Assembly (NCBI GenBank): GCA_037441385.1
Contig: JBBISH010000072.1
Span: forward strand, 1 to 33,390
Direction of reading: 5' to 3'
From: Myxococcales bacterium
GTDB lineage: Bacteria > Myxococcota_A > UBA9042
DNA length: 33,390 nt
Below the pieces are notes generated by a model. It saw only the letters and a program-made list of their open reading frames with translations, was not told the DNA's origin and did no database searches. Numbering within the stretch: the first letter of the stretch is position 1; every line of letters starts with the position of its first letter. This document shows positions 12,130 through 24,838 of the stretch, piece by piece. The translations under genes were made by a program, and so were the position numbers.

Positions 12130-12335
12130 GGGGTGATCTCGGCGCGCCCGACGCATCGGGGTCGGATTCGGGTCCGGCGGTCGCACAGCGCAACAAACCC
12201 GGCGCACCCGCGTGCCGCATGCCTTGGCGTGGCAAGTCGGCACGGGGCCATGATAGAAACGCGCAGCCCGGCGGGCAAGGCCAGCCGAAGAATTGTCCGC
12301 GAGCTTGCCCACCTGCCGGGCGGGAGCACCCCAAC

Positions 12336-14762
12336 ATGAGCGAAGGCCTGCGCAACCATCGTATTCTAGAAGCATTGGCTCTGCACGCCGCCACGGATCG
12401 CGGCGAGGTCGCGGCTCGCGCCTTGGCTGCGGCCAGTTCGCCCGACGAGGCCCAGGTGCGCCTTGCCGAGGTGACCGAGGCCGAATTGCTGTTGCGCAAC
12501 TCATCGTTGCCCAAGCTGCCGCTGCGCCTGGACGTCGCTGAGCCGCTGACCCGGGCGGGCCGCGGGGCCAGTCTGGACGGGTCGGACCTGGCGGCGCTGG
12601 GGCGACTGGCGCGCGCCGGACGGCAGAACCAGCGCATCGGACAGCTGTGGCCACCAGAAGTCCGGTTGCTTCGCGCTCACGTGGGCCGGCTACCCGATCT
12701 GGAACTGGTAGGGACAATCCTGGCCGACTCGCTGGACGACGACGGGCTGCTGCTGGACACGGCCAGTCCCGAGCTGGCGCGGCTGCGGCAGGAAGTGTTC
12801 ACGCTGGGCGCCCGGCTGCGGCGGCGCATCGAGGCGCTGGTCAAAGAGACCGATGCGGCCGGCCTGCTGCAAGACGACTACTACACGCTCCGCGACGACC
12901 GCTACGTCTTGCCGGTGGTGGCGAGCCAAAAGCGCACGCTTTCCGGGATCATCCACGGCATGTCGCAAACCGGCGCGACGGTCTACGTCGAACCGCAAGA
13001 GCTCGTCGACGGCAACAATCAGCTGGCGTTGGCTCACGAGGCCGTGCGTCGCGAAGAGCGGCGCATCCTGGCCGAACTGTCGCAGATGTGCGCCGAGCAC
13101 CGCGACGAATTGCTGGCGACGTCGGATGTTTTGACCCTGGTGGATCTGCGCATGGCAGCGGGTCGCCTTGGCGTGCAGTTGGAGGCTCACTGCCCGCGTT
13201 TTGGCGACGGCACCGCGCTGGATGCCCCGGCGCTGCGCCACCCCATCTTGGTGCTCGACGGTGTGCAGGTGGTCGCCAATGCGGTGCGGTGGTCAGCGCC
13301 CGCGCGCTGGTTGGTGGTATCGGGGCCCAACGGTGGCGGCAAGACCGTAGTGCTTAGCGCGGTGGGCCTAGCGGTCGAGATGGCGCGCATGGGCCTGTTT
13401 GTGTGCGCCTCGCCCGATACCCTGCTGCCCTGGTTCGACCGCGTCGAGACCGTGCTGGGCGATGCACAGGACATCGAGCGCGGTCTGTCGACCTTTGAAG
13501 GGCACCTGCGCCGCATCGCGCAAGTACTTACCGCTGCTGAGCAACCGGGGCAGACGCTCATTTTGCTGGACGAACTGGCGACCGGCACTGAGCCCTTGGC
13601 CGGTGCCGCGCTGGCCACGGCCATTCTAGAACACGCGATGGCCAACCTGCCGCGCGCTTGGGGCGTGGTGACCACGCACTTCGAAGCGCTGAAATTGCTC
13701 GCGCTGCGCAACCCGGCCTGTGTCAACGCCGCTTTGGAGCTGGACGCGCGCAGCCTGACGCCCACGTTCCGCCTGACGCTGGGCCACATGGGCACCTCGA
13801 ACCCGCTGGCGCTGGCGGCGCGGTTGGGCATGCCGGCCAGCATCGTGAACCGCGCCGAGCAGCTGATGGGCACCGGAGGCAGCGAGGTCATGCAACTGCT
13901 CGACCGCCTGCAGGCGCAGCGCCAGGCCCTGGCGGACGCGGAGCAGTCGGTGCAGCGCGAGAAGAAACAGCTTGAAAATAGTCGTCAATTGCTCGACGAC
14001 CAGCGAAACAACGAACAGCGCGCCATCGACCGCCGCATCGAGCGCGCCACGGCCGATGTGAACAAGCAACTTCATGCAGTTGCTCAGGAATTGGCCCAGG
14101 CGCGTCAGGCCGCGGCGTCGGCCGACAAAAAGCGCATCGAAGAGGCGGCCAAGGTGATCTCGCAGCGGCAAGTGGAGGTCGAACGCCTGAGCAAAGCCGC
14201 CACGGCGCGCCTGGGGGGCAAAATCGAGCGCGAGCCCATGCAAGCCACACAGCTGCAAGTTGGCTCTGTGGCATGGCATTTGGGCCTGGACTGCCGGGTT
14301 GAGTTGATCGAGGCCTCGCCCAAGGGCGATCGGTTCAAAGTCCGCGCTGGCGGCCTGGAGCTGTGGTGCACGCTGGCCGAGTTGGCTACGAGCAAGCCGA
14401 GCGACGTGGCGCCAGTGACCAAGCCCCAAGGCAAGCAAGGCGCTCAGGCTAGCCAACCAACTGATTCTACTGCACAACCCCGAAATCTCGATGAGGGAGC
14501 GGCGCTGCTGCGACTGCCCGACGCAACCGTGGATGTGCGCGGCATGCGCGCCGAAGAGGCCGTCCGCGAGGTCGACCGCCACCTGGACAAGATGATTCTG
14601 ACAGGTCGCCCAGGTGCTTGCGTGGTCCACGGCCACGGCACCGGAGCCCTGCGCGACGCCGTGCGGTCGCACCTGCGCCGGCACCCGCACGTCGCCCACA
14701 GCCGCCCCGGTCTGCAGGGCGAAGGCGGCGACGGCGCCACGCTGGTCTGGCTCGAAACCTAG
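12336..14762 (+). CDS. mutS2: MutS2 endonuclease / ribosome-collision ATPase with Smr domain
   Basis: GIIHGMSQTGATVYVEP, GPNGGGKT, LSTFEGH, LLDELATGTEP, TTH, coiled coil, C-terminal Smr (VDVRGMR...HGHGTGALR...GGDGAT). Confidence 0.93.
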   Translation: MSEGLRNHRILEALALHAATDRGEVAARALAAASSPDEAQVRLAEVTEAELLLRNSSLPKLPLRLDVAEPLTRAGRGASLDGSDLAALGRLARAGRQNQRIGQLWPPEVRLLRAHVGRLPDLELVGTILADSLDDDGLLLDTASPELARLRQEVFTLGARLRRRIEALVKETDAAGLLQDDYYTLRDDRYVLPVVASQKRTLSGIIHGMSQTGATVYVEPQELVDGNNQLALAHEAVRREERRILAELSQMCAEHRDELLATSDVLTLVDLRMAAGRLGVQLEAHCPRFGDGTALDAPALRHPILVLDGVQVVANAVRWSAPARWLVVSGPNGGGKTVVLSAVGLAVEMARMGLFVCASPDTLLPWFDRVETVLGDAQDIERGLSTFEGHLRRIAQVLTAAEQPGQTLILLDELATGTEPLAGAALATAILEHAMANLPRAWGVVTTHFEALKLLALRNPACVNAALELDARSLTPTFRLTLGHMGTSNPLALAARLGMPASIVNRAEQLMGTGGSEVMQLLDRLQAQRQALADAEQSVQREKKQLENSRQLLDDQRNNEQRAIDRRIERATADVNKQLHAVAQELAQARQAAASADKKRIEEAAKVISQRQVEVERLSKAATARLGGKIEREPMQATQLQVGSVAWHLGLDCRVELIEASPKGDRFKVRAGGLELWCTLAELATSKPSDVAPVTKPQGKQGAQASQPTDSTAQPRNLDEGAALLRLPDATVDVRGMRAEEAVREVDRHLDKMILTGRPGACVVHGHGTGALRDAVRSHLRRHPHVAHSRPGLQGEGGDGATLVWLET

Positions 14763-15114: not shown

Positions 15115-16062
15115 CTACTTGGGCCGAGCGTAGCCCACCAGGCACTGGCCGGTGGTCCAGACTTCGTTGCTGCTGGGCCAACGCACCAGGCGCGTATTGA
15201 CCACTTCGCCCGCGCCGTCGCGAATGACCTGCGGCCGAGTGGGATCCACTGCCATTCTGCGCACTTTGCCCGCTCGCTGCGCAATCAGCACCACGTGGGC
15301 GCCGCGCACGCGTTCAACCACGCCGACCAGCGTCACGCCGTCGTCAGGGCGGCCATTGCCATTCAAGTCGGCGGTATCGCGAAAGAAGATCAGATCGCCC
15401 GGACGGGTGTCGCCGTCGGGCACCTTGCCATTCTGGCCGGTCAGCTTGCCCCACAGCGCCGCCGCATAGGGCCCACGCGCCTCGACCTGCACGTCTTGCC
15501 CTGCGGCCTTGAGCACTTGCGCTACAAACGCCCGATCCTGCAGGCCGGGCGTCCCCAGCAGCGCCTGAGCGGCTTCCACACGTTGGGTTGCGCGAAGTTC
15601 CTCGTCGTTCTGCGGTGCACGAGCATTGGCCGGGGCGGCCGGCTGCTGGGTCGGTGCCGCCTCTGCAGGAGCACGCACTGGCTCTGCGACTGGCGCGGGC
15701 GGGGTCGATTCAGCTGGCGGATCCTTGGCTTGCGCGGCGTGACGCTGCGGCCAAGCACCGGTGGGGTGGGTAGCCATGACCGGTCGCTGGCGGGCGGGAC
15801 GATCACGCGGCGGCGCCTCTTCGGGCCGCTCGTCCAACGGCGGAGGCGGCAGGCCCAGCTGCGGTTCCGGGGCGTCGCCCCCTGCGTTCAGACCGCTTTC
15901 CTCAAAGGCGTAGTCGCGCGGGCACGTGACGGCGGCCCCACAGCCTGCCCAGGCAACAGACGAGCAACACAGCAAAACACTGGCGCTCGACAGCCAAGTT
16001 CGGTCCGCAACCCGCAGGGTTCGGCGCAGCTGGGGCAGCAGTTCCGCCAAGATCACTCGCAC
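15115..16062 (-). CDS. Lipoprotein with Pro-rich linker and C-terminal NlpC/P60(CHAP)-like domain, catalytic residues apparently lost
   Basis: VAWAG-C lipobox; Pro/Ala-rich middle; RPGDLIFFRDTADLNGNGRPDDGVTLVGVVE resembles the PGDLVFF...THVG core. Start uncertain. Confidence 0.65.
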   Translation of the reverse strand: MRVILAELLPQLRRTLRVADRTWLSSASVLLCCSSVAWAGCGAAVTCPRDYAFEESGLNAGGDAPEPQLGLPPPPLDERPEEAPPRDRPARQRPVMATHPTGAWPQRHAAQAKDPPAESTPPAPVAEPVRAPAEAAPTQQPAAPANARAPQNDEELRATQRVEAAQALLGTPGLQDRAFVAQVLKAAGQDVQVEARGPYAAALWGKLTGQNGKVPDGDTRPGDLIFFRDTADLNGNGRPDDGVTLVGVVERVRGAHVVLIAQRAGKVRRMAVDPTRPQVIRDGAGEVVNTRLVRWPSSNEVWTTGQCLVGYARPK

Positions 16063-16249: not shown

Positions 16250-17440
16250 ATGTTCGCATCCGCTCGCCAACTCGGTTTGGCCCTTCTGACTTTGACCGCC
16301 AGTCTGTCGGGCTGCGTGGTCGCTACCGGCACGCCCCAGCCCGCCGGCACCACGGTCGCAGGCACCGCCAGCTTTGTCCTGGCCTGGACCGTCGCGGGCC
16401 AGCCCGCAAGTTCGGGCTGTGGAGCCAAGGGCTTGGTCACGGTCGACGCGCTGATCCTAGACGCCGCCAAGGCCAAGATCCTGGGCAAAGCCTCTGCCGC
16501 GTGCACGGCTGGTCAGGTCACGATCCAGAATTTACCAGCAACCAGCGGCACTTGGCTCCAGATCGACGGCTACACCGCCAGCGACCCGGCCGGCAGCCCT
16601 AGCTGGGGCAACGACCCGCTCAGCGGTCCCTTCGTGTTGATCTCCAACAAGATCGGTCAGCCCGATGCGCCCATCGACCTGGTCAAGCTGCAAGGCGCCC
16701 CGACCGGCCAAGGCAACGTCTACGTGACATGGAGCATCAAGGGCAAGCCAGCCGCCAGTGGCTGCGGCGACTTTGGCATCAACACGGTGACGGTGCACGT
16801 CAAAGACGACAAGAAGAACGAACTCGCCTACATCGAAGCGCCCTGCAGCGCCGGCAACGCCACGATCGCCAAGGTGCCCGCCGGCAGCGCGCGCTACGTG
16901 CAGATCGACGCCTTTGGCCCCAAATTGCCAGAGAGTTGGGGCAACATCAGCCTCGCCGGCCCGTTCGCCGTGGTCGCGAACCAAACCGCCAGCGCCCCCA
17001 GCGCCATCGACTTGGACCGCCGCTCGGTGCTCAGCTTTGACTGGGGCTTTGCCAGCGGCACCTGCGCCAGCAACGGCGTCGCCACGGTCTACGTGCAAGT
17101 CCGCGACAAGAACAACCAAGTCGTGGTGCCCATGACCGATGCCTGGGCCGCCAAGCCCTGCGACTTGTCGACCGCGTCCAGCTACGACGCGCGCGTCATC
17201 GACTACGACCATGCCACGCCGACGTGCGCGATTCCGCCCAACGCCAAGGGCTTGGTGGTCTGCAACGCGCCAGCCGGCGGCATCGGCCTGATGCTCACCG
17301 GCACGGGCGCCAACAGCACCAATCCGCTGGTCGGCGGCAGCATGAATGTGTTGAATTACCAAGCGGGTACCGAAGTCGACTCGCTGACTCCGATCCTGCT
17401 CGCGCCCTGCTCTGGCGCCAATCCCTGCCAACAGCCCTGA
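16250..17440 (+). CDS. Cys-containing repeat lipoprotein of unknown function
   Basis: RBS GAGG; lipobox SLSG-C; two clear ~115-aa repeats (W..G.PA.SGCG...TV...C.AG..TI..PA...QID...SWGN..L.GPF) and a divergent third. Confidence 0.8.
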   Translation: MFASARQLGLALLTLTASLSGCVVATGTPQPAGTTVAGTASFVLAWTVAGQPASSGCGAKGLVTVDALILDAAKAKILGKASAACTAGQVTIQNLPATSGTWLQIDGYTASDPAGSPSWGNDPLSGPFVLISNKIGQPDAPIDLVKLQGAPTGQGNVYVTWSIKGKPAASGCGDFGINTVTVHVKDDKKNELAYIEAPCSAGNATIAKVPAGSARYVQIDAFGPKLPESWGNISLAGPFAVVANQTASAPSAIDLDRRSVLSFDWGFASGTCASNGVATVYVQVRDKNNQVVVPMTDAWAAKPCDLSTASSYDARVIDYDHATPTCAIPPNAKGLVVCNAPAGGIGLMLTGTGANSTNPLVGGSMNVLNYQAGTEVDSLTPILLAPCSGANPCQQP

Positions 17441-17448
17441 ACGAGTCC

Positions 17449-17607
17449 CTAGACATCGGATCAATTAGGACTTTCTCCGCACATCCGAACCTTCGACTAC
17501 GGCGCGGCGAGTCGCTGAAGGCGCTCGCTTGCGCCCCACGTGGGGCTAGAGACGCGGCCAAAGCGGCAATTACTGAACAAATGAGCAGTAGTTGGTCGCG
17601 TCTCTAG
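17449..17607 (-). repeat. Uninterrupted B+C composite repeat, copy 2 (CTAG-C-CTAG-B-CTAG)
   Basis: CTAG at 17449, 17546 and 17604; inverted relative to 14759-15093; the last CTAG contains the livF stop. Confidence 0.9.
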
Positions 17608-18326
17608 CCGTCGCCCAGGTAGGCCGCCTGCACCTTCGGGTCGGCCAGCAGCTCGGCGCCCGTGCCCTCGGCAATCACCGACCCCGTCTCGAGCACATAG
17701 GCGCGCGACGCGATCTTCAGCGCCATGCGGGCGTTCTGCTCCACCAGCAAGATGGTGGTGCCCTGACGGTTCAACTCCAGGATCACGTCGAAAATCCGCT
17801 GGACAATCAAGGGCGCCAGCCCCAGCGACGGCTCGTCCAAGAGCAGCAGCCGCGGCCGGATCATCATGGCGCGACCCACCGCCAACATCTGCTGCTCGCC
17901 GCCAGAGAGCGTGCCGGCCAACTGCGCGCGCCGCTCGAGCAACACCGGGAACAGGCCGAAGATCTTCTCCAAGTCCTGACGAATACCGTCTTTGTCGTCG
18001 CGGATGTAGGCGCCCAGGGCCAAGTTCTCGGCCACGGACAGGCGCGGGAACACCCTTCGGCCTTCGGGGCAATGGGCGATGCCGCACGTGACGATCTGGT
18101 GCGCCGGCAGGGGCAGCAAGTCCTTGCCCTCAAAGGTGATCTTGCCAGCCTTGGGCTTGTGCAGACCCGAGATGCAAGTGAGCGTGGTGGTCTTGCCCGC
18201 GCCGTTGGCGCCAATTAGCGTCACGATTTCGCCCACTTGCACCTTCAGCGAAATGCCGTGTAGCACCTCGATGGCGCCGTGGGCAGCGCGGATCTGCTCG
18301 ACCTCCAGCATCGCTCCCGCCGTCAT
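17604..18326 (-). CDS. livF: Branched-chain amino acid ABC transporter ATPase LivF
   Basis: GANGAGKTT, PEGRRVF, LSGGEQQMLA, LLLDEPSLGLAP, VEQNA. Confidence 0.92.
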   Translation of the reverse strand: MTAGAMLEVEQIRAAHGAIEVLHGISLKVQVGEIVTLIGANGAGKTTTLTCISGLHKPKAGKITFEGKDLLPLPAHQIVTCGIAHCPEGRRVFPRLSVAENLALGAYIRDDKDGIRQDLEKIFGLFPVLLERRAQLAGTLSGGEQQMLAVGRAMMIRPRLLLLDEPSLGLAPLIVQRIFDVILELNRQGTTILLVEQNARMALKIASRAYVLETGSVIAEGTGAELLADPKVQAAYLGDG

Positions 18327-18329
18327 GCG

Positions 18330-19583
18330 CTAGTGCCCCCCATCGTCGGCGCCCAGATAGGCCTCGATCACCTTGGGATCGCGGCGGATTTCGTCGGGCG
18401 TACCGTGCGCGATGCGCTTGCCGTGGACCAGCACGGTGATGTGGTCGCTGATGCCCATGACGACCCGCATGTGGTGCTCGATGAGCAGGACCGTCACACC
18501 GCGGTCGCGGATAGCCCGCACCAGCGCCATCAATTCCACGGTCTCGGACGGGTTCATGCCGGCGGCCGGTTCGTCCAAAAGCAGCAGCTTGGGCCGTGTC
18601 GCCAGGGCGCGCGCGACCTCCAACCGCCGTTGCTCACCGTAGGCCAGACTGTTGGCCAGGTCGCCAGCGCGACGGTCCAAGCCCACGAATTTCAACAGCT
18701 CCATCGCCTCTTGCCGTGCCACCGCTTCCACAATCCGGCTCGCCCCGGTCAGCGTGCCGCGCCGCGTCAGGCGTACCAGCCAGGCCAACGCCGCGCCAAC
18801 CAGCGCCACCAGCAGCACCGACGGCACGGTCTCGTCGTCGACGCCGTCGCCGGTGGTCCAGCCCAGGCCCACCATGGCCAGCACGCACACGGCCGGCAGC
18901 CCCAGGTCCAGCCACGCGCCATGCGGGAAACGCCCATCCAGTGCGGATCTGGCCGCTCCGCCGCTTCCAACTGTGCCGCGCCGCAGGTGCCGATCCATCG
19001 CGACCAGCACGTTTTCGAGCACGCCCATGTGGTGGAACAGGCGGATATTCTGGAAGGTGCGCGCCACACCTTGCAGGGCTACGCCTTGTGGGGTCCGCCG
19101 ACTGCGCAGCCACACCGCCCGCGCTCCCAGCGCACCGATGACAAATCCGACCAGCGAGAACAGCAACATCAACATAGTGTTGCCGGCCGCAACGTGAGCA
19201 AACAGATCCGAAAACGCACCCGAGATTGTGAACTCCCAAGGCGGATGGGCCTTGATCACCGCCTTCCAAGTCGCGTCGATCCCGGCAGCGATGAAGAGGA
19301 ACAGCAGGCTCGACGCCAGCCCCGTAGCGAGCCAGCCGGACACGACTTTGCCGGTCATCGGTGCGCGCACGTCGCGGCCGTCCAAGTGGACCTCGCCGGA
19401 GGTGGGCTCGTAGATGCCAGTAATCGCGTTGAAAAGACTGGTCTTTCCGGCGCCATTGGGACCGATGACCGCCGCGATCTCGCCCGGCCGCACGTCCAAG
19501 TCGACTTCGCTGACCGCCGTAAGGCCGCCAAAGCGCAAAGTCAATTTGCGCACGCTGAGCAGCGAAGTAGCCGGCGCGCTCAC
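18330..19583 (-). CDS. livG: LivG-type ABC ATPase with two hydrophobic insertions (417 aa)
   Basis: LRFGGLTAV, GPNGAGKT, ARTFQNIRLF, LAYGEQRRLE, LLLDEPAAGMNPSE, IEHHM, VIEAYLG; extra segments at about aa 74-162 and 203-275. Confidence 0.88.
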   Translation of the reverse strand: MSAPATSLLSVRKLTLRFGGLTAVSEVDLDVRPGEIAAVIGPNGAGKTSLFNAITGIYEPTSGEVHLDGRDVRAPMTGKVVSGWLATGLASSLLFLFIAAGIDATWKAVIKAHPPWEFTISGAFSDLFAHVAAGNTMLMLLFSLVGFVIGALGARAVWLRSRRTPQGVALQGVARTFQNIRLFHHMGVLENVLVAMDRHLRRGTVGSGGAARSALDGRFPHGAWLDLGLPAVCVLAMVGLGWTTGDGVDDETVPSVLLVALVGAALAWLVRLTRRGTLTGASRIVEAVARQEAMELLKFVGLDRRAGDLANSLAYGEQRRLEVARALATRPKLLLLDEPAAGMNPSETVELMALVRAIRDRGVTVLLIEHHMRVVMGISDHITVLVHGKRIAHGTPDEIRRDPKVIEAYLGADDGGH

Positions 19584-20680
19584 GCTTCCTCCGGTTCTTC
19601 GTGCAGTTCTGCGGCCACGCGGCGGGCCGGGAACAGCCCCTCTGGGCGCAGCCGCATCATGAAGATCAGCGCAAAACCAAACAGGAACCAGCGCCAGGAC
19701 GAGAAGCGCGCCAGCGGGTGCGAGGCATCGCCTACTGCCACTTGGATGCCCCGGTCGAGTAGCGGCGACAGCACGTTGTCAAAACCGATGAGCAGCGCCG
19801 CACCCAGCAGCGCGCCGCGGAGCGAGCCCAAACCGCCGATGATCAGACAGCAAAGCACCATCACCGCGTTGTTGAAGTCGTAGTTGGTGGGGTCGGCGGT
19901 GGTGGTCAGGTTGGTGGCGTACAGGCAGCCGGCCAGGCCCGACAGCGCGGCGCCGCCGGCAAACGCCATCAGCTTGATGCGCCCCGGGTCCAGGCCCATG
20001 CAGGCCGCGGCCAACTCGTCTTCGCGCAGGGCCACGAAGGCCCGGCCGATCCGGGTATTTTCGATGACTTTGAGCACCACCACCGCCGCCACGAGCACGA
20101 GCAGCGCGGTGTAGTACATCACCAGCAGGTTGGCCTCGCCGGCGTCGCCCGCGCCCAGCCAGTCGCGAAGCCACGACGGGGTCCACACTTCGGGCACCGG
20201 GTTCAGGCCGCGCGGACCGTCAGTAATGTTCTCCAAATTGATGAGCACTGTGCGCAGGACTTCGCCAAAGCCGATCGTCACGATCGCCAGATAGTCGCCC
20301 CGCAGCCGCAACGTGGGGGCGCCGATCACCGCGCCCGCCACCGCCGCCACCAGCGGCGCACAGACCAAGGCACCCCAAAATCCAAAGTGGAATGGGTACT
20401 TGTCTACGGTCATCACGCCGGTCGCCATCGCGCCAATACCAAAGAACGCCGCAATACCCAGCTGCAGCAGGCCCGCGTAGCCCACCTGGACGTTTAGCGC
20501 CACCACCAAGATGCCGTAGACAAAGATGGTCACCAGCCGCTGGTCCAAGTGGAGTTGCAGGCCCGCCGCCTCGCCAGCCAGATCGAACACTGGGAAAATT
20601 GGGTAAAGAACTGCAAAAATCAGCAGCAACGACTCAGTCGTCAAGTACCGCTTCCAACCTCTTGGTGCAACCACGGCCAT
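19580..20680 (-). CDS. livM: Branched-chain amino acid ABC permease LivM
   Basis: GYAGLLQLG, LRLRGDYLAIVTIGFGE, GRAFVALREDE, GGLGS, RPEGL. Confidence 0.9.
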   Translation of the reverse strand: MAVVAPRGWKRYLTTESLLLIFAVLYPIFPVFDLAGEAAGLQLHLDQRLVTIFVYGILVVALNVQVGYAGLLQLGIAAFFGIGAMATGVMTVDKYPFHFGFWGALVCAPLVAAVAGAVIGAPTLRLRGDYLAIVTIGFGEVLRTVLINLENITDGPRGLNPVPEVWTPSWLRDWLGAGDAGEANLLVMYYTALLVLVAAVVVLKVIENTRIGRAFVALREDELAAACMGLDPGRIKLMAFAGGAALSGLAGCLYATNLTTTADPTNYDFNNAVMVLCCLIIGGLGSLRGALLGAALLIGFDNVLSPLLDRGIQVAVGDASHPLARFSSWRWFLFGFALIFMMRLRPEGLFPARRVAAELHEEPEEA

Positions 20681-20683
20681 TGA

Positions 20684-21634
20684 CTACACTTTCTCCCGCG
20701 CCGTGGACCCAAGCAGACCCGCCGGACGGAACACCAGCAGCACGATCAGAATCCCGAACAGCACCGCCGGCTGCCATTGCGCGCCGATGAATTGGTCCGA
20801 GAACGCCCGCACCAGGCCTAGCAGCAAGCCGCCCAGCACCGCGCCCGGGATGTTGCCGATGCCACCCACCACCGCCGCAGTAAAGGCATACAGGCCGTTC
20901 TGGTAGCCCATCTGGTAGTACACCGTGTTGATGTACAAGGCGTAGACCACCGCGGCAAACCCCGCCAGACCGCCGCCCACCAAGAAGGTCGCGGCCACCA
21001 CCCGATCCACGTCCACGCCCATCAGCCGCGCCGCTTGCGGGTCCTGGGCCGTGGCGCGCATGGCCATCCCCAACTTGGTGCGCGTCACCAGCAAGAACAG
21101 CGCGGTCATCACGGCCAGCGAAGCCCCGATAACCAATACGTCTTTGAGCTGCAGCGTCAGGGCCGCGTCGCCCAGGAGGTTGTCGGTGGGCAGCAGCGCC
21201 GGGAACGACTTGGGCGCCGCCGGCTGCCCGCCGCCGCCAAAGACGTCGAGCGGCAAAGCCCCCCAAATCAAACCGATGTTCTGCAGCACAAACGACACGC
21301 CGATGGCCGACACCAGCGGCGCCAACTTGGGCGCCTTGCGCAGCGGCTTGTAGACCAGCCGATCGATCAGCAGGTTGACCACGGCGCCAAAGCCCGAAGC
21401 GAGCACCAGCACCAGCGCCAGCTGCGCAAACAGGCTGAACCCTTGGGCATCCTGCAGGCCCGACGCGCCGACCAGCGTCAGGGCAAAGAACCCGGACAGC
21501 ATGAACACGTCGCCATGCGCAAAGTTGATGAACTCCAAGATGCCATACACCATGGTGTAACCCAGCGCGATCAAGGCAAAAACCATGCCATTGGTCAGGC
21601 CGAGCAGCAGCTGTTGCGCCAGGGTGTCGAGCAC
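20684..21634 (-). CDS. livH: Branched-chain amino acid ABC permease LivH
   Basis: ALIALGYTMVYGILEFINFAHGD, GMAMRATAQD, AFTAAVVGGIGNIPGA. GTG start at 21634 preceded by GGAG. Confidence 0.92.
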   Translation of the reverse strand: MLDTLAQQLLLGLTNGMVFALIALGYTMVYGILEFINFAHGDVFMLSGFFALTLVGASGLQDAQGFSLFAQLALVLVLASGFGAVVNLLIDRLVYKPLRKAPKLAPLVSAIGVSFVLQNIGLIWGALPLDVFGGGGQPAAPKSFPALLPTDNLLGDAALTLQLKDVLVIGASLAVMTALFLLVTRTKLGMAMRATAQDPQAARLMGVDVDRVVAATFLVGGGLAGFAAVVYALYINTVYYQMGYQNGLYAFTAAVVGGIGNIPGAVLGGLLLGLVRAFSDQFIGAQWQPAVLFGILIVLLVFRPAGLLGSTAREKV

Positions 21635-21672: not shown

Positions 21673-23100
21673 CTACGGAGCGGTGGGCGTTGCGGCCGCG
21701 GGCACGCACTGCCACGCGGCGACTTTGGCGGGATCTTGGCCCTTGCCGTCGAAGAACAGCTGCGCTGAGGGGCCAAGGCCGACGCCCGAGCCCGGAGCCT
21801 GGGCCGGGGCTGGAACCGTTTCTGCTTTGGGCGCGCCCTCTTGCACGCCAAGCATCACCGAAAACACGAAGTTTCCATTCTGAACTATCGAACCCGACAT
21901 CGTGGTCAGGCTGGTGTCGCCATTGCTGTCAAAGTTCCAAGTGCCCAGCGCACCGGCGTCTTGCTTGTACTCGGTCATCGCCTTGCGGAGGCCCTCGCGG
22001 TCCTTCTTGCCGGTCTTGGCCAGCACATCCAGTGCCGTGCGGGCGGCCACGTAGCCGTAGACCGCATAACCCTCTGGCTCGCTGTGGAATTTGTCGCGGT
22101 ACTTCTTGACGAAGTCGGCGCCCTTGCCGGTCAGCTTGTCGGGCGGAACGCCGCCGAAGGTGACAAAGGCCCGCCCTTCCAGGTTCTTGGCGCCGCCGGC
22201 CTCGATGAACGCCTTCTCGAAGCAACCGTCGGGCACCATCAGCTTGGCCGGCAGGGCCACGGCCACCATGTCCTTGGCGATCTGCCCGGCGTTGGTCTGG
22301 GTGGTGCCGCCAAAGTACACGAAATCAGGGTTCAAGGCCTTGATCTTGGTCATCAGCGACCGGTACTCCTGCGCCTTGGGGTCGATGCCTTCGCGCCCAA
22401 GCACCTGCAGCCCGGTCTGCTTGGCCGTCAGTTCGAACACATCGGCGATGCCTTTGCCGTACAGACCGCGATCGTCCAGGATATACACGGACTTGGCGCC
22501 CAGCTTGTGCATCCACTCGCAAGCGGCCTTGCCTTGGATGTCGTCGGCCGGGACCACGCGGAAGTAGTTGACGTTGCCCGTGGGACGGTAGACCGCCGGC
22601 TCGTTGGCCTCACCCATGCCGGGCTTGGTCAGGCCGGTGTAGGTGTTGGCGGGCGAGATCATCACCAGCGCATTTTTGTTCAGGATCGGCATCGAGATCT
22701 TGGCCGCGCCCGAGTTGTACGTGCCGATGTAGAACATCACATCGGGGTCTTTGGCGGCCTTGTCGGCGTTGGCGGCTTCGACTTCGGGGTCCCAGTCGCC
22801 CTTCTTGGCGCTGGCGTCGTCCCAGTCCTCGTAGACCACTTGGAATTCACCGGCTTCGTTGCCCGCTTCCTCTAGCGCCATCTTGATGCCGTTGACGGTG
22901 GTGCTGGTCTGGGCGTTTGCCGAGCCGGTCCGCGGCAAACTCGAGACGATCTTGACCACGCCCGCGCTGCCGCCCGTGGGCTGGGCGTTGATGGCACCGG
23001 AACTGGCGCTAGCTGCGGCGTTTCCGGGCCGGCGGCGCGCGCACGAGGCATCCAAGACAGCGAGGAGCGCCAACACGAGCAAGAAGATTCGATTCGTCAC
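21673..23100 (-). CDS. livK: Branched-chain amino acid ABC substrate-binding lipoprotein (LivK/LivJ family)
   Basis: GTG start at 23100, lipobox-like LDAS-C; GTYNSG, ISPANT, NYFRVVPADDIQG, DDRGLYGKGIAD, GALGTWNFDSNGD. Confidence 0.85.
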   Translation of the reverse strand: MTNRIFLLVLALLAVLDASCARRRPGNAAASASSGAINAQPTGGSAGVVKIVSSLPRTGSANAQTSTTVNGIKMALEEAGNEAGEFQVVYEDWDDASAKKGDWDPEVEAANADKAAKDPDVMFYIGTYNSGAAKISMPILNKNALVMISPANTYTGLTKPGMGEANEPAVYRPTGNVNYFRVVPADDIQGKAACEWMHKLGAKSVYILDDRGLYGKGIADVFELTAKQTGLQVLGREGIDPKAQEYRSLMTKIKALNPDFVYFGGTTQTNAGQIAKDMVAVALPAKLMVPDGCFEKAFIEAGGAKNLEGRAFVTFGGVPPDKLTGKGADFVKKYRDKFHSEPEGYAVYGYVAARTALDVLAKTGKKDREGLRKAMTEYKQDAGALGTWNFDSNGDTSLTTMSGSIVQNGNFVFSVMLGVQEGAPKAETVPAPAQAPGSGVGLGPSAQLFFDGKGQDPAKVAAWQCVPAAATPTAP

Positions 23101-23251
23101 CAGAGAGCCTCGCCACGGCGGTTCAGTTCGGCGCGAGAGTACGCGAAAAGCAACGGCGAAACAACGGCCACAACCGCCGCGGTTGTCCATAATCCGCCGC
23201 GGTTGGCCGCCGCCCGCAGAAGTGCTACCGTTCGCGCCCCTGGAGGTGGCC

Positions 23252-24838
23252 ATGAGCAACACCGTGTTTGATACGCAACTGCAAGAGAACTACAAACAAC
23301 TCAAGGCGATGCAGGCCGTGGACCGCATCTGGCAGCGCGACGGCGCGCTGTTTTCGGACGACCTGGAGGTGGCGCGCGCCGTGCGGAACCGCCTGGGCTG
23401 GCTGTTTTGCAACGCCACGATGCGCAGCCACGTCGACCGCCTGGCCGTCATGGCCAAAGTGGTGGAACGGCAACGCTACGACCGCGTGGTGGTCATCGGC
23501 ATGGGCGGTTCGTCGCTGTGGCCCGAGGTGGTGGGCCGGCACCTGCAAGGGCGGCGCGGGTTGCCCATCCGCGTGGCCGACAGCACGCATCCCCTGGCGG
23601 TGGCAGAGCTTTTGGCCTGGTGCCAACAAGGCAAGGCCCTGTTCGTGGTGGCGACCAAGAGCGGCGGCACGGTCGAGACCGTGAGCCTGTACCGCTACTT
23701 CCGGCCCATTTTCGACGACGGGCAGCACTATGTGGCCATCACGGACGCGGGATCGAGCCTGGAGGCGCTCGCCAAGGCCGAGGGGTTCCGCGAGATCTTC
23801 ATCAACCCCTCTGACGTCGGCGGGCGTTTCTCGGCCGCAACGCTCTTTGGCCTAGTGCCGGCAGTGTTGGCCGGCGCGGTTCTACACGACGCCCTGCAAC
23901 GCGTGGAAGACATGCTGCAAGAGTGCCGCGAGCCCGATCCCAGCCTGAACCCAGGCGCACAGCTGGGGGCGTGGCTGGCCGCGGCTGAGCAAACCGGCCA
24001 CTGGCAAGTCCGCCTGGCGCTTGGCAAAGACGTGCGCAACTTTGGCGCGTGGGTCGAGCAACTGGTCGCAGAGTCGACGGGCAAGCTGGGCCACGGCGTG
24101 CTGCCCGTGCTGGGCGGCGTGGACCAGAACCACTTGGCCGCGGCGATGCAAGCCGGCGCCGTGGTGGGCTTGACGACGTTCGCCCACCCGGACGAGCCGT
24201 TCCTGCAGCAATGCCAAGAAGTCGGGGCCGCCGAGCTCAGCTTTGTCATGCCCGAGGTGACCGATCTCTGGGCCGAGGTCGTACGTTGGGAATTCGCCAC
24301 GGCCGTGTGCGGCTTGCTCCTGGGGATCAACCCGTTTGATGAGCCGGACGTGTCCAGCGCGAAGGCGGCGACGAACGCCCTGCTCAGCGGCAAAGAGCAG
24401 CCGGCCGAGCCCAGCCGCCGGGTCCAAATCACCGCGCTCAGCCAGCTGGCCAGCGAACTGCAGCCGGAGCTGAGCAGCTTGAAACCCGGTGACTATTTGG
24501 CGGTTTTGGCCTTCGTCGCCCCGACCACGGGCAACCTGCAGCGCCTGGAGGCCCTGCGGCAGAGTCTGCAAGACAAAACCGCCGCCGCCGTCACGGTGCA
24601 GGTCGGCCCGCGCTACCTGCACTCCACGGGTCAGCTCCACAAGGGCGGACCGCGCCAGGGCGTATTCGCAGTGGTCACCGACCTGAACCAGCCCGACGTG
24701 CCCGAAACGGCCATCCCTGGTGCAAGTTTTGGCTTTCGGCAGCTAGCGCAGGCACAATGTCAGGGCGACGTCTGGGTGCTGCGGCAGCGCGGCAAGCCGG
24801 TCGTCTTCGCCGACTGGGCGGCGGCGCGAGCGACCTGA
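23252..24838 (+). CDS. pgi: Glucose-6-phosphate isomerase of the type found in Tal-Pgi fusions, here stand-alone
   Basis: GMGGSSL, TKSGGTVET, VGGRFS, EQLVAESTGK, NPFDEPDV, GPRYLHSTGQLHKGG; GGAGG before ATG 23252. Confidence 0.85.
   Translation: MSNTVFDTQLQENYKQLKAMQAVDRIWQRDGALFSDDLEVARAVRNRLGWLFCNATMRSHVDRLAVMAKVVERQRYDRVVVIGMGGSSLWPEVVGRHLQGRRGLPIRVADSTHPLAVAELLAWCQQGKALFVVATKSGGTVETVSLYRYFRPIFDDGQHYVAITDAGSSLEALAKAEGFREIFINPSDVGGRFSAATLFGLVPAVLAGAVLHDALQRVEDMLQECREPDPSLNPGAQLGAWLAAAEQTGHWQVRLALGKDVRNFGAWVEQLVAESTGKLGHGVLPVLGGVDQNHLAAAMQAGAVVGLTTFAHPDEPFLQQCQEVGAAELSFVMPEVTDLWAEVVRWEFATAVCGLLLGINPFDEPDVSSAKAATNALLSGKEQPAEPSRRVQITALSQLASELQPELSSLKPGDYLAVLAFVAPTTGNLQRLEALRQSLQDKTAAAVTVQVGPRYLHSTGQLHKGGPRQGVFAVVTDLNQPDVPETAIPGASFGFRQLAQAQCQGDVWVLRQRGKPVVFADWAAARAT

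What the first reader, a model, noticed from the sequence alone, without database searches (positions are those of the whole stretch)
18330..19583. ABC ATPase LivG with two transmembrane hairpins inserted inside the nucleotide-binding domain
Seen: 417 aa, against about 255 aa for ordinary LivG. All motifs are intact and in frame (Walker A, Q-loop RTFQN, LAYGE signature, Walker B, H-loop). Insert 1 (about aa 74-162; nt 19364-19098) lies between Walker A and the Q-loop and has two hydrophobic helices (VVSGWLATGLASSLLFLFIAAG; MLMLLFSLVGFVIGALGA) around a ~35-aa loop. Insert 2 (about aa 203-275; nt 18977-18759) lies in the helical subdomain and has two more (WLDLGLPAVCVLAMVGLGW; VPSVLLVALVGAALAWLV) around an acidic loop TTGDGVDDET. 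Arg/Lys clusters flank the outer ends of both hairpins, as the positive-inside rule predicts. LivH, LivM and LivF are present and normal, so this is not an end-to-end permease-ATPase fusion. Inference: an integral-membrane NBD with its own periplasmic loops, which could anchor the ATPase or let an external signal gate ATP hydrolysis. I know of no characterised example.
Basis: partly seen in the sequence, partly recalled or inferred. Interest (0 to 1): 0.8.

Follow-up and report, generated by a model that had tools for sequence, protein, structure and literature searches.

The report
ABC importer ATPase with membrane hairpins
The normally soluble ATP-burning subunit (LivG) of an amino-acid-type ABC importer here carries two conserved pairs of membrane-type helices inside its catalytic domain, so it is probably an integral membrane protein, a layout found in hundreds of uncultured bacteria but described in no paper or solved structure that I could search.

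Summary
The ORF at 18330-19583 (-) encodes a 417-aa LivG-type ABC ATPase with all catalytic motifs. It sits in an SBP-LivH-LivM-LivG-LivF operon.

- **Size of the inserts:** plain relatives have 46 residues from Walker A to the Q-loop and 90 from the Q-loop to Walker B. This protein has 134 and 158. That gives two inserts of about 88 and 68 residues.
- **Membrane character:** each insert holds two helices as hydrophobic as the permease helices. Charges follow the positive-inside rule.
- **Structure:** an AlphaFold2 model (mean pLDDT 90.9) shows four long helices added to an intact nucleotide-binding fold. That fold matches MJ1267/LivG. No solved chain covers the inserts.
- **Not an artefact:** 112 of the 120 best database hits carry both inserts. 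All 12 orthologue loci from related genomes carry both.
- **Distribution:** insert 1 alone occurs in Planctomycetota and Verrucomicrobiota operons and is homologous to this one. It has an invariant Trp in the outer loop and small-residue motifs in its helices. Earlier notes of this scan flagged insert 1 in planctomycetes. The second hairpin, at the "LivG insert" site, is what this window adds.
- **Limits:** function is inferred, not shown. I read the hairpins as auxiliary membrane helices and a tether beside LivHM, possibly with a contact on the outer face.

The parts
18330..19583 (-). livG* gene: 417-aa LivG-type ABC ATPase with two internal hairpin inserts
   Evidence: ORF. Pfam ABC_tran 97 bits in 2 stretches and BCA_ABC_TP_C 51.8 bits. 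NCBIfam LivG NF008449 272 bits in 3 stretches, below its cut-off of 362. AF2 mean pLDDT 90.9.
19440..19463 (-). Walker A, GPNGAGKT, residues 41-48
   Evidence: invariant in alignment A1
19095..19361 (-). Insert 1, residues 75-163, between the ABC-beta strands and the Q-loop
   Evidence: Walker A to Q-loop is 134 residues against 46 in plain relatives. Homologous to insert 1 of insert-1-only proteins.
19278..19343 (-). Predicted membrane helix 1, residues 81-102 (conserved W84, G88, L89, small residue at 92)
   Evidence: KD 1.94; AF2 helix 78-100; conservation
19185..19277 (-). Outer loop 1, residues 103-133, with the conserved motif D103-x-x-W106-x-A-x-x-K111 and F118; two short helices in the model
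   Evidence: W106 invariant in 19 of 19 and 100% of 56; F118 92%; AF2 helices 102-111 and 120-133; net charge -0.2 over 44 sequences
19113..19184 (-). Predicted membrane helix 2, residues 134-157, with G146-x3-G150-x2-G153, followed by W158 and the basic cluster R160, R162, R163
   Evidence: KD 2.22; AF2 helix 136-160; G150 91%, R162 96%; stretch after the helix has net charge +3.2
19050..19061 (-). Q-loop, RTFQ, residues 175-178; starts 15 residues after the end of the AF2 helix (residue 160) that contains membrane helix 2
   Evidence: invariant
18750..18977 (-). Insert 2, residues 203-278, in the helical subdomain at the position of the 'LivG insert'
   Evidence: Q-loop to Walker B is 158 residues against 90 in plain relatives; alignment A1; flexible linker 203-221 with pLDDT under 50
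18855..18920 (-). Predicted membrane helix 3, residues 222-243
   Evidence: KD 1.80; AF2 helix 223-243; stretch before it has net charge +2.5
18831..18854 (-). Acidic outer loop 2, residues 244-251 (TGDGVDDE)
   Evidence: 0 K+R and 4 D+E in residues 242-251
18762..18830 (-). Predicted membrane helix 4, residues 252-274
   Evidence: KD 2.25; AF2 helix 252-274
18630..18647 (-). ABC signature, LAYGEQ, residues 313-318
18570..18587 (-). Walker B with catalytic Glu, LLLLDE, residues 333-338
18471..18482 (-). H-loop, IEHH, residues 368-371
17604..18326 (-). livF-like partner ATPase, 240 aa, no inserts
   Evidence: Pfam ABC_tran in one stretch, 22-167; NCBIfam LivF 283.9 bits, below cut-off 441
19580..20680 (-). 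livM-like permease, 366 aa
   Evidence: BPD_transp_2 150 bits; nine hydrophobic peaks at a KD threshold of 1.5
20684..21634 (-). livH-like permease; probable true start at V28 of the longest ORF (which runs to 21715), giving 316 aa
   Evidence: BPD_transp_2 160.8 bits; orthologues begin at this position
21673..23262 (-). Substrate-binding protein (Peripla_BP_6); the true start is probably downstream of the longest ORF's start
   Evidence: Pfam 124 bits, residues 103-448; one hydrophobic N-terminal segment at 52-70

Best explanation
LivG* is the only LivG of this genome's only Liv-type (HAAT family) ABC importer. It is a catalytically competent nucleotide-binding domain that is itself an integral membrane protein.

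Two helical hairpins, each entering from and returning to the cytoplasm, are spliced into two surface sites of the domain. Hairpin 1 lies between the ABC-beta strands and the Q-loop. Hairpin 2 lies at the 'LivG insert' of the helical subdomain, next to the groove that receives the permease's coupling helix.

I infer that the four helices stand in the bilayer beside LivH/LivM as auxiliary membrane helices. They would tether the motor permanently to the permease. Through the conserved outer loop of hairpin 1, they would also make a contact on the outer face of the transporter.

**Shown here:** the inserts, their hydrophobicity, their charge pattern, their conservation, and the intact ATPase fold.

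**Inferred:** membrane insertion, packing against LivHM, and any functional role.
For: **The inserts are membrane-like.**
- There are four hydrophobic peaks of KD 1.8-2.25 over 19 residues. The rest of the NBD reaches at most about 1.1, and LivH/LivM helices score 1.6-2.7.
- Charges follow the positive-inside rule over 44 two-insert homologues. Net charge is +3.2 after helix 2 and +2.5 before helix 3, but -0.2 and -0.6 in the two outer loops.
- Helices 1 and 2 carry conserved small-residue motifs: G88 (83%) and position 92 (Gly in 66%; Ser here) in helix 1; G146, G150 (91%) and G153 in helix 2.

**The ATPase fold is intact.**
- AF2 with a 62-sequence alignment gives mean pLDDT 90.9 and pTM 0.83. 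It shows helices at 78-100, 136-160, 223-243 and 252-274. Only the linker 203-221 is unconfident.
- The NBD core superposes on TM1139 (1ji0, Z 30.3, 239 residues) and on MJ1267 (1g9x, Z 28.8, rmsd 2.0). Among the 50 best entries listed of 48,161 chains aligned, none aligns more than 247 of the 417 residues.

**The layout is conserved.**
- 112 of the 120 best hits carry both inserts.
- 12 of 12 orthologue loci in related genomes carry both.
- Of the 150 best 50%-identity representatives, 61 carry insert 1, and 11 of those also carry insert 2.
- Insert 1 is homologous across classes: 49 of 55 insert-1-only inserts match an HMM of the two-insert class at E<=1e-3. None of 275 shuffles does.
- W106 is invariant in 19 of 19 sequences from three phyla.

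**Genomic context.**
- The same SBP-LivH-LivM-LivG*-LivF operon occurs in a Verrucomicrobiae locus and a Kuenenia locus.
- In this genome LivG* is the only match to itself at E<=1e-20. The only other BPD_transp_2 pair belongs to a Bmp-type system with a fused double ATPase.

**Site of insert 2.** The 'LivG insert' of MJ1267 is described as structurally equivalent to the coupling-loop binding site (passages of PMC3776845).
Against: - There are no experimental topology data, and no dedicated TM or topology predictor was available.
- The AF2 coordinates could not be read. I therefore did not verify that the four helices are parallel and point to the membrane-facing side of the NBD.
- The complex of LivH, LivM and LivG* could not be predicted.
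- LivH and LivM of insert-bearing operons show only small indels against those of plain operons. No helix has been lost that the hairpins would replace.
- Helix 3 is the least hydrophobic (KD 1.80). It has an Asp (226) near its start and a Pro (230) inside it.
- The insert sequence diverges fast. A search with residues 72-168 alone finds only 8 proteins. That would fit a passive anchor as well as a specific contact.
- No solved LivM-like structure was found by sequence to dock against.
Confidence: 0.6

Rival explanations
1. Trans-membrane lever. The outer loop of hairpin 1 senses the docked binding protein or a periplasmic ligand. It passes this signal through helix 2 straight to the Q-loop 15 residues downstream. 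ATP hydrolysis is then gated from outside without going through the permease. In relatives this loop is a folded domain of 50 to over 300 residues.
For: - The outer loop holds the best-conserved residues of the insert: W106 in 100% and F118 in 92% of 56 sequences, and W106 in 19 of 19 across three phyla.
- The AF2 helix that contains membrane helix 2 ends at residue 160, and the Q-loop starts at 175.
- Loop length varies widely. Walker A to Q-loop is 131-135 in the minimal form and reaches 372 (L012) and 404.
- The 462-aa homologue P0014 is modelled with a confident three-strand plus helix domain in this loop (mean pLDDT 94.5; strands 133-137, 140-144 and 151-155; helix 158-173).
- One long-loop member has a sub-threshold EF-hand match (23.7 bits, cut-off 25.9).
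Against: - In this window's protein the loop is the minimal 31-residue form without the folded domain.
- No Pfam family passes its threshold in the loops of the 10 long-loop sequences tested.
- Nothing here shows contact with the binding protein.
- Hairpin 2 has only an 8-residue outer loop, which fits an anchor better than a sensor.
Confidence: 0.2
2. The hydrophobic helices do not span the membrane. They form a peripheral or in-plane membrane-binding subdomain, or a buried four-helix bundle on the cytoplasmic side.
For: - Membrane insertion was not tested.
- Helix 3 is only moderately hydrophobic and contains Asp and Pro.
- AF2 folds the chain confidently as a single body without any membrane.
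Against: - All four segments are 19-25 residues long, with KD values in the range of the permease helices.
- Basic clusters flank only the ends predicted to be cytoplasmic.
- In homologues up to about 330 residues, including a folded domain, sit between helices 1 and 2. That is easier to place outside the membrane than inside a cytoplasmic bundle next to the NBD dimer interface.
Confidence: 0.12
3. Artefact: mis-assembly, frameshift read-through or a decaying gene.
For: - The NCBIfam LivG score falls below the equivalog cut-off (272 against 362).
- Three of the 120 best hits (P0007, P0013, P0046) are N-terminally short proteins without a Walker A. For P0007 and P0046 the source is an NCBI record.
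Against: - The frame is open with all motifs in register.
- An independently built contig is identical.
- 12 of 12 orthologue loci keep both inserts in frame at 57-93% identity.
- Hundreds of homologues share the layout.
- The gene is translationally coupled to livM.
Confidence: 0.01

Closest known systems
Canonical LivG / MJ1267 (HAAT family, TC 3.A.1.4; NCBIfam NF008449; PDB 1g6h, 1g9x, 1gaj)
   Same: - Same fold: Foldseek best hit 1g6h with TMt 0.83; 1g9x with Z 28.8 and rmsd 2.0 over 234 residues.
- Same motifs, including the LxYGxQR-type signature and the C-terminal BCA_ABC_TP_C motif.
- Same operon partners LivH, LivM, LivF and an SBP.
- Insert 2 sits where MJ1267 has its short 'LivG insert'.
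   Different: - 417 aa against about 255.
- About 88 and 68 extra residues form two hydrophobic helical hairpins, so it is probably not a soluble peripheral subunit.
- The score is below the LivG equivalog cut-off.
Membrane-threaded LivG of planctomycetes, flagged earlier in this scan (AI notes e1-2706732 and e1-5245116)
   Same: - Insert 1 is at the same site, with two membrane-type helices around an outer loop.
- I confirmed homology of insert 1 between this protein's class and insert-1-only proteins.
- I found insert 1 in Kuenenia, Gemmataceae, Pirellulales and Fimbriiglobus loci.
   Different: - Here the loop is the minimal 31-residue form.
- A second hairpin is present in the helical subdomain.
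- The host belongs to a different phylum (Myxococcota, inferred from the names of the closest hits).
Archaeal MalK, DppF and OppD ATPases with internal membrane hairpins, flagged earlier in this scan (AI notes e1-5449150, e1-5423138, e1-5416719, e1-1532003, e1-5591952, e1-5454901)
   Same: Same idea: membrane-type helices spliced inside the NBD of an ABC importer. In some cases they lie in the helical subdomain.
   Different: Different ABC families (CUT1, PepT), different domain of life, and no sequence relation tested here. I did not check those notes.
Fused TMD-NBD ABC proteins (half-transporters; MacB-type with an N-terminal NBD), and the natural LivM-LivG-LivF fusions seen among this protein's relatives
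   Same: The NBD is covalently joined to membrane helices, so the motor cannot leave the membrane.
   Different: In those proteins a complete permease domain is attached end to end and forms the translocation path. Here four helices lie inside the NBD sequence, and separate LivH and LivM permeases are still encoded.
CFTR NBD1 regulatory insertion (named in PMC3776845, passages read; its position and disorder are recalled, not tested)
   Same: A lineage-specific insertion in an ABC NBD that modulates coupling between the nucleotide site and the coupling-helix site. It is an analogue for the 'lever' reading.
   Different: It is soluble, disordered and phospho-regulated, is not hydrophobic, and belongs to a different ABC family.

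Membership tests
ABC ATPase (Pfam PF00005, ABC_tran) | Walker A, Q-loop, signature, Walker B with catalytic Glu, D-loop and H-loop, all in order | tested here: met
   Motifs at 41-48, 175-178, 313-318, 333-338, 340-344 and 368-371. PF00005 scores 97 bits against a cut-off of 25, split into 2 stretches. Invariant columns in A1.
LivG (HAAT family ATPase; NCBIfam NF008449 equivalog) | Score at or above the curated equivalog cut-off (362 bits) | tested here: not met
   272.2 bits in 3 stretches. LivG is still the best-scoring family (next is UrtD at 182). The shortfall goes with the two inserts and with distance from the E. coli protein. LivF, LivM and LivH of the operon are also below their equivalog cut-offs.
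LivG/LivF-type ATPases | C-terminal BCA_ABC_TP_C motif (PF12399) | tested here: met
   51.8 bits against a cut-off of 25.5, residues 390-414
LivG (HAAT family ATPase) | Fold of MJ1267, including a helical-subdomain insert relative to other NBDs | tested here: met
   1g6h is the best Foldseek hit (E 4.1e-18, TMt 0.83). 1g9x gives Z 28.8. Insert 2 aligns to the LivG-insert region of plain LivGs.
HAAT family ABC importer (TC 3.A.1.4) | Operon with two BPD_transp_2 permeases, a second ATPase (LivF type) and a Peripla_BP_6 binding protein | tested here: met
   Gene order is SBP, LivH, LivM, LivG*, LivF on the minus strand, with overlapping or 3-nt junctions.
Canonical importer NBD | Soluble, peripheral subunit without membrane helices (about 240-260 aa) | tested here: not met
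   417 aa with four hydrophobic helices of KD 1.8-2.25 and a positive-inside charge pattern. Actual membrane insertion is not testable with these tools.
Insert-1-bearing LivG clade (this scan's 'membrane-threaded LivG') | Two hydrophobic helices between Walker A and the Q-loop, with the outer-loop Trp motif and the W-x-R-x-R-R-T-P stretch after helix 2 | tested here: met
   W106 invariant in 19 of 19. R162 96% and P165 85%. HMM test 49 of 55 against 0 of 275 shuffles. On a core-only FastTree, 168 of 174 carriers fall in one split with 3 plain sequences (support 0.954). A subsampled IQ-TREE gives a weaker 68 of 83 with 6 plain (aLRT 90.3).
Fused TMD-NBD half-transporter | A complete permease domain attached to the N- or C-terminus of the NBD | tested here: not met
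   No hydrophobic segment lies before Walker A or after Walker B. The helices lie inside the NBD, and separate LivH and LivM genes are present.

The most novel reading that the evidence does not exclude
The hairpins are a second, direct signalling path across the membrane in an ABC importer. The conserved outer loop of hairpin 1 (invariant Trp106; a folded domain of 50 to over 300 residues in relatives) would read the state of the binding protein or of a periplasmic ligand. It would move helix 2, which ends 15 residues before the Q-loop. Hairpin 2 sits at the coupling-helix groove. Together they would let the outside of the cell gate ATP hydrolysis without passing through the permease. If true, this is a new principle of ABC transporter regulation. 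It may recur in the archaeal MalK, DppF and OppD cases noted by this scan.
Probability: 0.2. Interest if true: 0.85.

Novelty: new variant of a known kind. Interest (0 to 1): 0.62.

Why it matters
The textbook ABC importer has soluble motor subunits that touch the membrane domain only through a coupling helix. Here a motor carries four membrane helices of its own, conserved over many uncultured bacteria in at least three phyla. That breaks the textbook division of labour.

It bears on how NBDs are assembled and held on their permeases. It also raises the question of whether ATP hydrolysis can be controlled from the outer face of the membrane.

The family offers natural variants for testing: no hairpin, one hairpin, two hairpins, and outer loops from about 30 to over 300 residues.

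It also matters for annotation. Three of the 120 best hits are N-terminally short proteins that lack the Walker A motif (two of them carry NCBI names), and curated LivG models score these proteins below their cut-off.

Tried and rejected
**Complex prediction.** The job was LivH alignment A2, LivM alignment A3 and LivG* residues 60-300 of A1. I handed it in. Each time the queue was full. At the tool reported itself unavailable. Nothing was folded.

**Model coordinates.** The AF2 models are not exposed to the script machine, so I could not measure the geometry of the hairpins relative to the NBD.

**Solved structures.** A phmmer search of PDB with LivM found nothing at E<=0.001.

**Insert-only search.** A database search with residues 72-168 found only 8 close relatives. 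The insert sequence alone is too divergent for that tool.

**Pfam on outer loops.** A scan of 10 long-loop sequences gave no family over threshold. The only hints were a sub-threshold EF-hand in P0132 and a weak DUF2826 match in L005.

**Permease comparison.** I compared LivH and LivM from 14 insert-bearing operons with those of plain operons (46 LivH, 42 LivM). Only small indels separate them, and no helix is gained or lost.

**RNA evidence.** No RNA holder is listed for this stretch.

**Joints in read laying.** These came from short pieces at 90% likeness with sides under 35 letters. I set them aside as conserved ABC segments of other organisms.

**Paper searches.** None found a description of membrane helices inside LivG or any importer NBD. 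I saw listings and abstracts only, except for passages of PMC3776845. Subscription journals, TCDB and bioRxiv supplements were not searchable.

**Phylogeny.** I rejected the claim of strict monophyly of insert carriers, because the FastTree and the subsampled IQ-TREE disagree on 6 to 15 sequences.

**ESM Atlas.** The look-up gave only leads: nearest clusters have 344-370 aa representatives, commonest in Planctomycetota and Chloroflexota.
Full report
**1. The observation**

The window holds, on the minus strand, five genes in this order:
- a Peripla_BP_6 binding protein (21673-23262)
- a LivH-like permease (20684-21634 or 21715)
- a LivM-like permease (19580-20680)
- the gene in question (18330-19583)
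- a LivF-like ATPase (17604-18326)

The GTG start of the gene in question overlaps the LivM stop codon as GTGA.

The 417-aa product has Walker A (41-48), Q-loop (175-178), signature LAYGEQ (313-318), Walker B (333-338), D-loop and H-loop (368-371), all in register. Pfam finds ABC_tran in two stretches and the LivG/LivF-specific C-terminal motif BCA_ABC_TP_C. NCBIfam ranks LivG first, at 272 bits in three stretches, below its 362-bit equivalog cut-off. The other four proteins are also best matched by Liv models but fall below their equivalog cut-offs. The system is therefore a HAAT-family importer of unknown substrate, not an orthologue of the E. coli one.

**2. Size and nature of the inserts**

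In plain relatives, Walker A to Q-loop is 46 residues and Q-loop to Walker B is 90. Here the spacings are 134 and 158. That gives inserts of about 88 residues (75-163) and 68 residues (203-278).

Kyte-Doolittle means over 19 residues peak at 1.94, 2.22, 1.80 and 2.25 in four segments. The rest of the protein stays at or below about 1.1. LivH and LivM helices score 1.6-2.7.

Over 44 two-insert homologues, net charge is as follows:
- +3.2 in the 15 residues after helix 2
- +2.5 before helix 3
- -0.2 in outer loop 1
- -0.6 in outer loop 2

In this protein loop 2 is TGDGVDDE. The pattern fits two hairpins that enter from and return to the cytoplasm, as an NBD requires.

**3. Structure**

AlphaFold2 with a 62-sequence alignment gives mean pLDDT 90.9 and pTM 0.83. 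It shows long helices at 78-100, 136-160, 223-243 and 252-274, two short helices in loop 1 (102-111 and 120-133), and one unconfident linker at 203-221.

Foldseek's best PDB hit is MJ1267, the archaeal LivG (1g6h, TMt 0.83, TMq 0.52). An exhaustive VIA-align pass over 48,161 chains gives 1ji0 at Z 30.3 and 1g9x at Z 28.8. Among the 50 entries it lists, no chain aligns more than 247 of the 417 residues. So the ATPase fold is intact and the inserts have no solved counterpart among those chains. I could not read the coordinates, so the orientation of the helices relative to the NBD is not verified.

**4. It is real and conserved**

- An independently assembled contig of run X1 (possibly the source sample) spans 18183-20680 without a difference. 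Small contigs from a second sample cover part of the gene, including insert 1, also without a difference.
- Of the 120 best hits in the 5.8-billion-protein collection, 112 carry both inserts, 5 carry insert 1 only, and 3 are N-terminally short records without Walker A.
- In related genomes, 15 of 41 (G000 included) have a match at E<=1e-30. All 15 are in the window's own family (14 of 24 other genomes there), and none is among the 16 genomes of other families.
- All 12 loci fetched carry both inserts.
- Within the genus the outer loop of hairpin 1 differs by about 48 residues: Walker A to Q-loop is 134 in five genomes and 182 in three. Other genera have 192-207. This window has the minimal loop.

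**5. A wider family**

Among the 150 best representatives of 50%-identity clusters:

| Class | Count |
|---|---|
| Both inserts | 11 |
| Insert 1 only | 50 |
| Plain spacing (many of them LivG-LivF or LivM-LivG-LivF fusions) | 67 |
| Not classifiable by my motif patterns | 22 |

Of the 80 genome loci fetched, 9 carry this insert 1. Two are Polyangia, and those also have insert 2. The other seven are Verrucomicrobiae, Candidatus Kuenenia, Gemmataceae, Pirellulales, Fimbriiglobus and two Planctomycetota MAGs. A tenth locus, L042, has a different hydrophobic insert at the same site. The remaining 70 are plain or lack the motifs; many of their long matches merely span adjacent livG and livF genes.

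The Verrucomicrobiae and Kuenenia loci have the same five-gene operon.

*Homology of insert 1.* An HMM built from the inserts of 121 two-insert proteins matches 49 of 55 insert-1-only inserts at E<=1e-3. It matches 0 of 275 composition-matched shuffles. The tested segment includes about 8-10 residues of canonical LivG sequence at its end.

An alignment of 19 inserts from three phyla shows these conserved features:
- an invariant Trp (W106 here) in the motif N-V-D-x-L-W-x-A-x-V-K just after helix 1
- a conserved Phe (F118, 92%)
- G-x3-G-x2-G in helix 2
- W-x-R-x-R-R-T-P after helix 2

*Homology of insert 2.* The 8 two-insert proteins that lie outside the main clade all score above every one of 160 shuffles against an HMM of the main clade's insert 2. 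Five of the 8 reach E<=1e-4.

**6. Distribution and evolution**

A profile of insert 1 (A4) gave these results:
- 15 of 301 genomes sampled from the window's phylum have a hit. All 15 are in the window's family (14 of 23 besides G000), and none is among the other 277 genomes.
- 8 of 301 genomes sampled from the phylum of the Kuenenia genome have a hit. Only 12 candidates per genome were scored, so these are lower bounds.

On a tree of NBD core columns only (262 columns, inserts excluded; 239 sequences; 27 dropped for missing motifs or truncation and 4 for odd spacing):
- FastTree puts 168 of 174 carriers on one side of a split with 3 plain sequences (support 0.954).
- It puts 112 of 120 two-insert proteins in a pure clade (support 0.979).
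- A subsampled IQ-TREE (148 sequences) is weaker: 68 of 83 carriers with 6 plain sequences (aLRT 90.3).

I conclude that insert 1 most likely arose once in a LivG lineage. That lineage is now patchily spread over Myxococcota, Planctomycetota and Verrucomicrobiota. Insert 2 was added in a sublineage. The numbers of losses or transfers are not resolved.

The sampling is biased, because the query contains the inserts and so hits that share them rank higher.

**7. Genomic role**

In this 90.9%-complete genome LivG* is the only match to itself at E<=1e-20. The only other BPD_transp_2 permease pair belongs to a Bmp/PnrA-type system with a fused double ATPase. LivG* is therefore the working LivG of the only Liv-type importer found, not a spare paralogue. 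The surrounding genes are housekeeping: MutS2, Fpg, MurJ, adenosine deaminase, and an IMPDH/GMP-reductase-type enzyme.

**8. How it most likely works**

*Shown:* an intact ATPase, four membrane-like helices at two fixed sites, a positive-inside charge pattern, and conserved small-residue motifs and outer-loop residues.

*From the literature:* the short 'LivG insert' of MJ1267, the site of insert 2, is described as structurally equivalent to the coupling-loop binding site of other NBDs (passages of PMC3776845).

*Inferred:* both hairpins leave the NBD on its membrane-facing side. They stand beside LivH/LivM as auxiliary helices and tether the motor. Loop 1 contacts something on the outer face.

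The bolder reading is that loop 1 reports the state of the binding protein, or of a periplasmic ligand, to the Q-loop through helix 2. Three points favour it:
- the conservation of loop 1
- the 15-residue distance from helix 2 to the Q-loop
- the folded domains that occupy this loop in relatives. The 462-aa homologue P0014 is modelled at pLDDT 94.5 with three strands and a helix there. Planctomycete loops reach a Walker A to Q-loop distance of 404.

Three points weigh against it for this window: the loop here is the minimal form, nothing shows a contact, and hairpin 2 has only an 8-residue outer loop.

LivH and LivM of insert-bearing operons differ from plain ones only by small indels. The hairpins therefore do not replace lost permease helices.

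**9. Comparison with what is known**

The protein is a LivG-type NBD by fold, motifs and operon. It fails the curated LivG equivalog score, and it fails the defining property of importer NBDs of being soluble.

It is not a fused half-transporter, because the helices are internal and separate permeases are present.

Eight literature searches found no description of membrane helices inside LivG or another importer NBD. These covered open-access full text and bioRxiv only. Subscription journals and TCDB were not covered.

Earlier AI notes of this scan had flagged insert 1 in planctomycete LivG (e1-2706732, and e1-5245116 with EF-hands). They had also flagged analogous hairpins in archaeal MalK, DppF and OppD. 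I confirmed the planctomycete connection myself. I did not check the archaeal notes.

What this window adds:
- the second hairpin at the LivG-insert site
- the minimal-loop form
- the presence in a Myxococcota family and in Verrucomicrobiae
- the homology and tree evidence

**10. Verdict**

The architectural reading is supported, and the functional reading is open. This is a new variant of a known kind of system. It would be surprising to an ABC-transporter specialist and is testable with standard topology and reconstitution experiments.

Noticed in passing
L042:6196-6429 (Candidatus Limnocylindrales MAG): A LivG with a different hydrophobic insert at the same site as insert 1. Walker A to Q-loop is 118 residues. 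By eye it has two hydrophobic helices with a very short loop, and it lacks the Trp motif. The insert-1 profile A4 finds nothing in that genome. This may be an independent insertion at the same hot spot. ESM Atlas also points to 346-370 aa clusters commonest in Chloroflexota.
   Followed up: partly
L004, L027, L029, L033, L043, L048, L050, L077 (Clostridia-type genomes): LivG homologues whose Walker A to Q-loop spacing is 70 instead of 46. That is a 24-residue, non-hydrophobic addition between Walker A and the Q-loop, where insert 1 lies.
   Followed up: no
L012:3355-4350; L104 and L105 (Planctomycetota genomes G560, G440): The outer loop of hairpin 1 grows to about 300 residues or more (Walker A to Q-loop 372, 371 and 404). 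No Pfam family matches the L012 loop. P0132 has a sub-threshold EF-hand match in its loop (23.7 bits, cut-off 25.9).
   Followed up: partly
P0007, P0013, P0046 (close homologues in public records): These are proteins of 263-279 aa that start inside the gene and lack Walker A. P0007 is 94% identical to this protein over 67% of it and begins near helix 2. P0007 and P0046 carry NCBI names. Gene callers appear to truncate these genes.
   Followed up: no
P0147, P0160, P0166, P0170 and others (800-945 aa): Among plain-spacing relatives there are natural single-chain fusions. They have 5-10 hydrophobic helices before the first Walker A and, in most cases, two Walker A motifs. Apparently they are LivM-LivG-LivF fusions.
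   Followed up: no
window 19736-19759 and 19715-19726 (LivM residues 308-315 and 319-322): The LivM segments LDRGIQVA and ASHP are present in essentially all 14 insert-bearing operons (occupancy 1.0 and 0.97). They are present in only about 0.3 and 0.1 of 42 plain operons. This is a possible co-varying feature. Its side of the membrane is not determined.
   Followed up: partly
window 21673-23262 (-): The longest ORF of the binding protein has about 100 residues before the Peripla_BP_6 domain. One hydrophobic segment (52-70) ends in ...LLAVLDASC, which looks like a lipoprotein signal by my recollection of the lipobox. The true start is probably internal. The Kuenenia SBP also has a long N-terminal extension, with the domain starting at residue 185.
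   Followed up: no
window 9406-12717 (-): A 1103-aa protein with an AAA_16 ATPase domain and TPR/MalT-like repeats, a STAND-type architecture.
   Followed up: no
window 16250-17440 (+) and 15115-16062 (-): Two ORFs of 396 and 315 aa next to the operon have no Pfam match at E<=1e-5. The first begins with a hydrophobic segment ending in ...SLSGC.
   Followed up: no
L102 (G000:C110:3500-13000): The genome's second BPD_transp_2 system is a Bmp/PnrA-type transporter with a double ABC ATPase and two permeases.
   Followed up: yes
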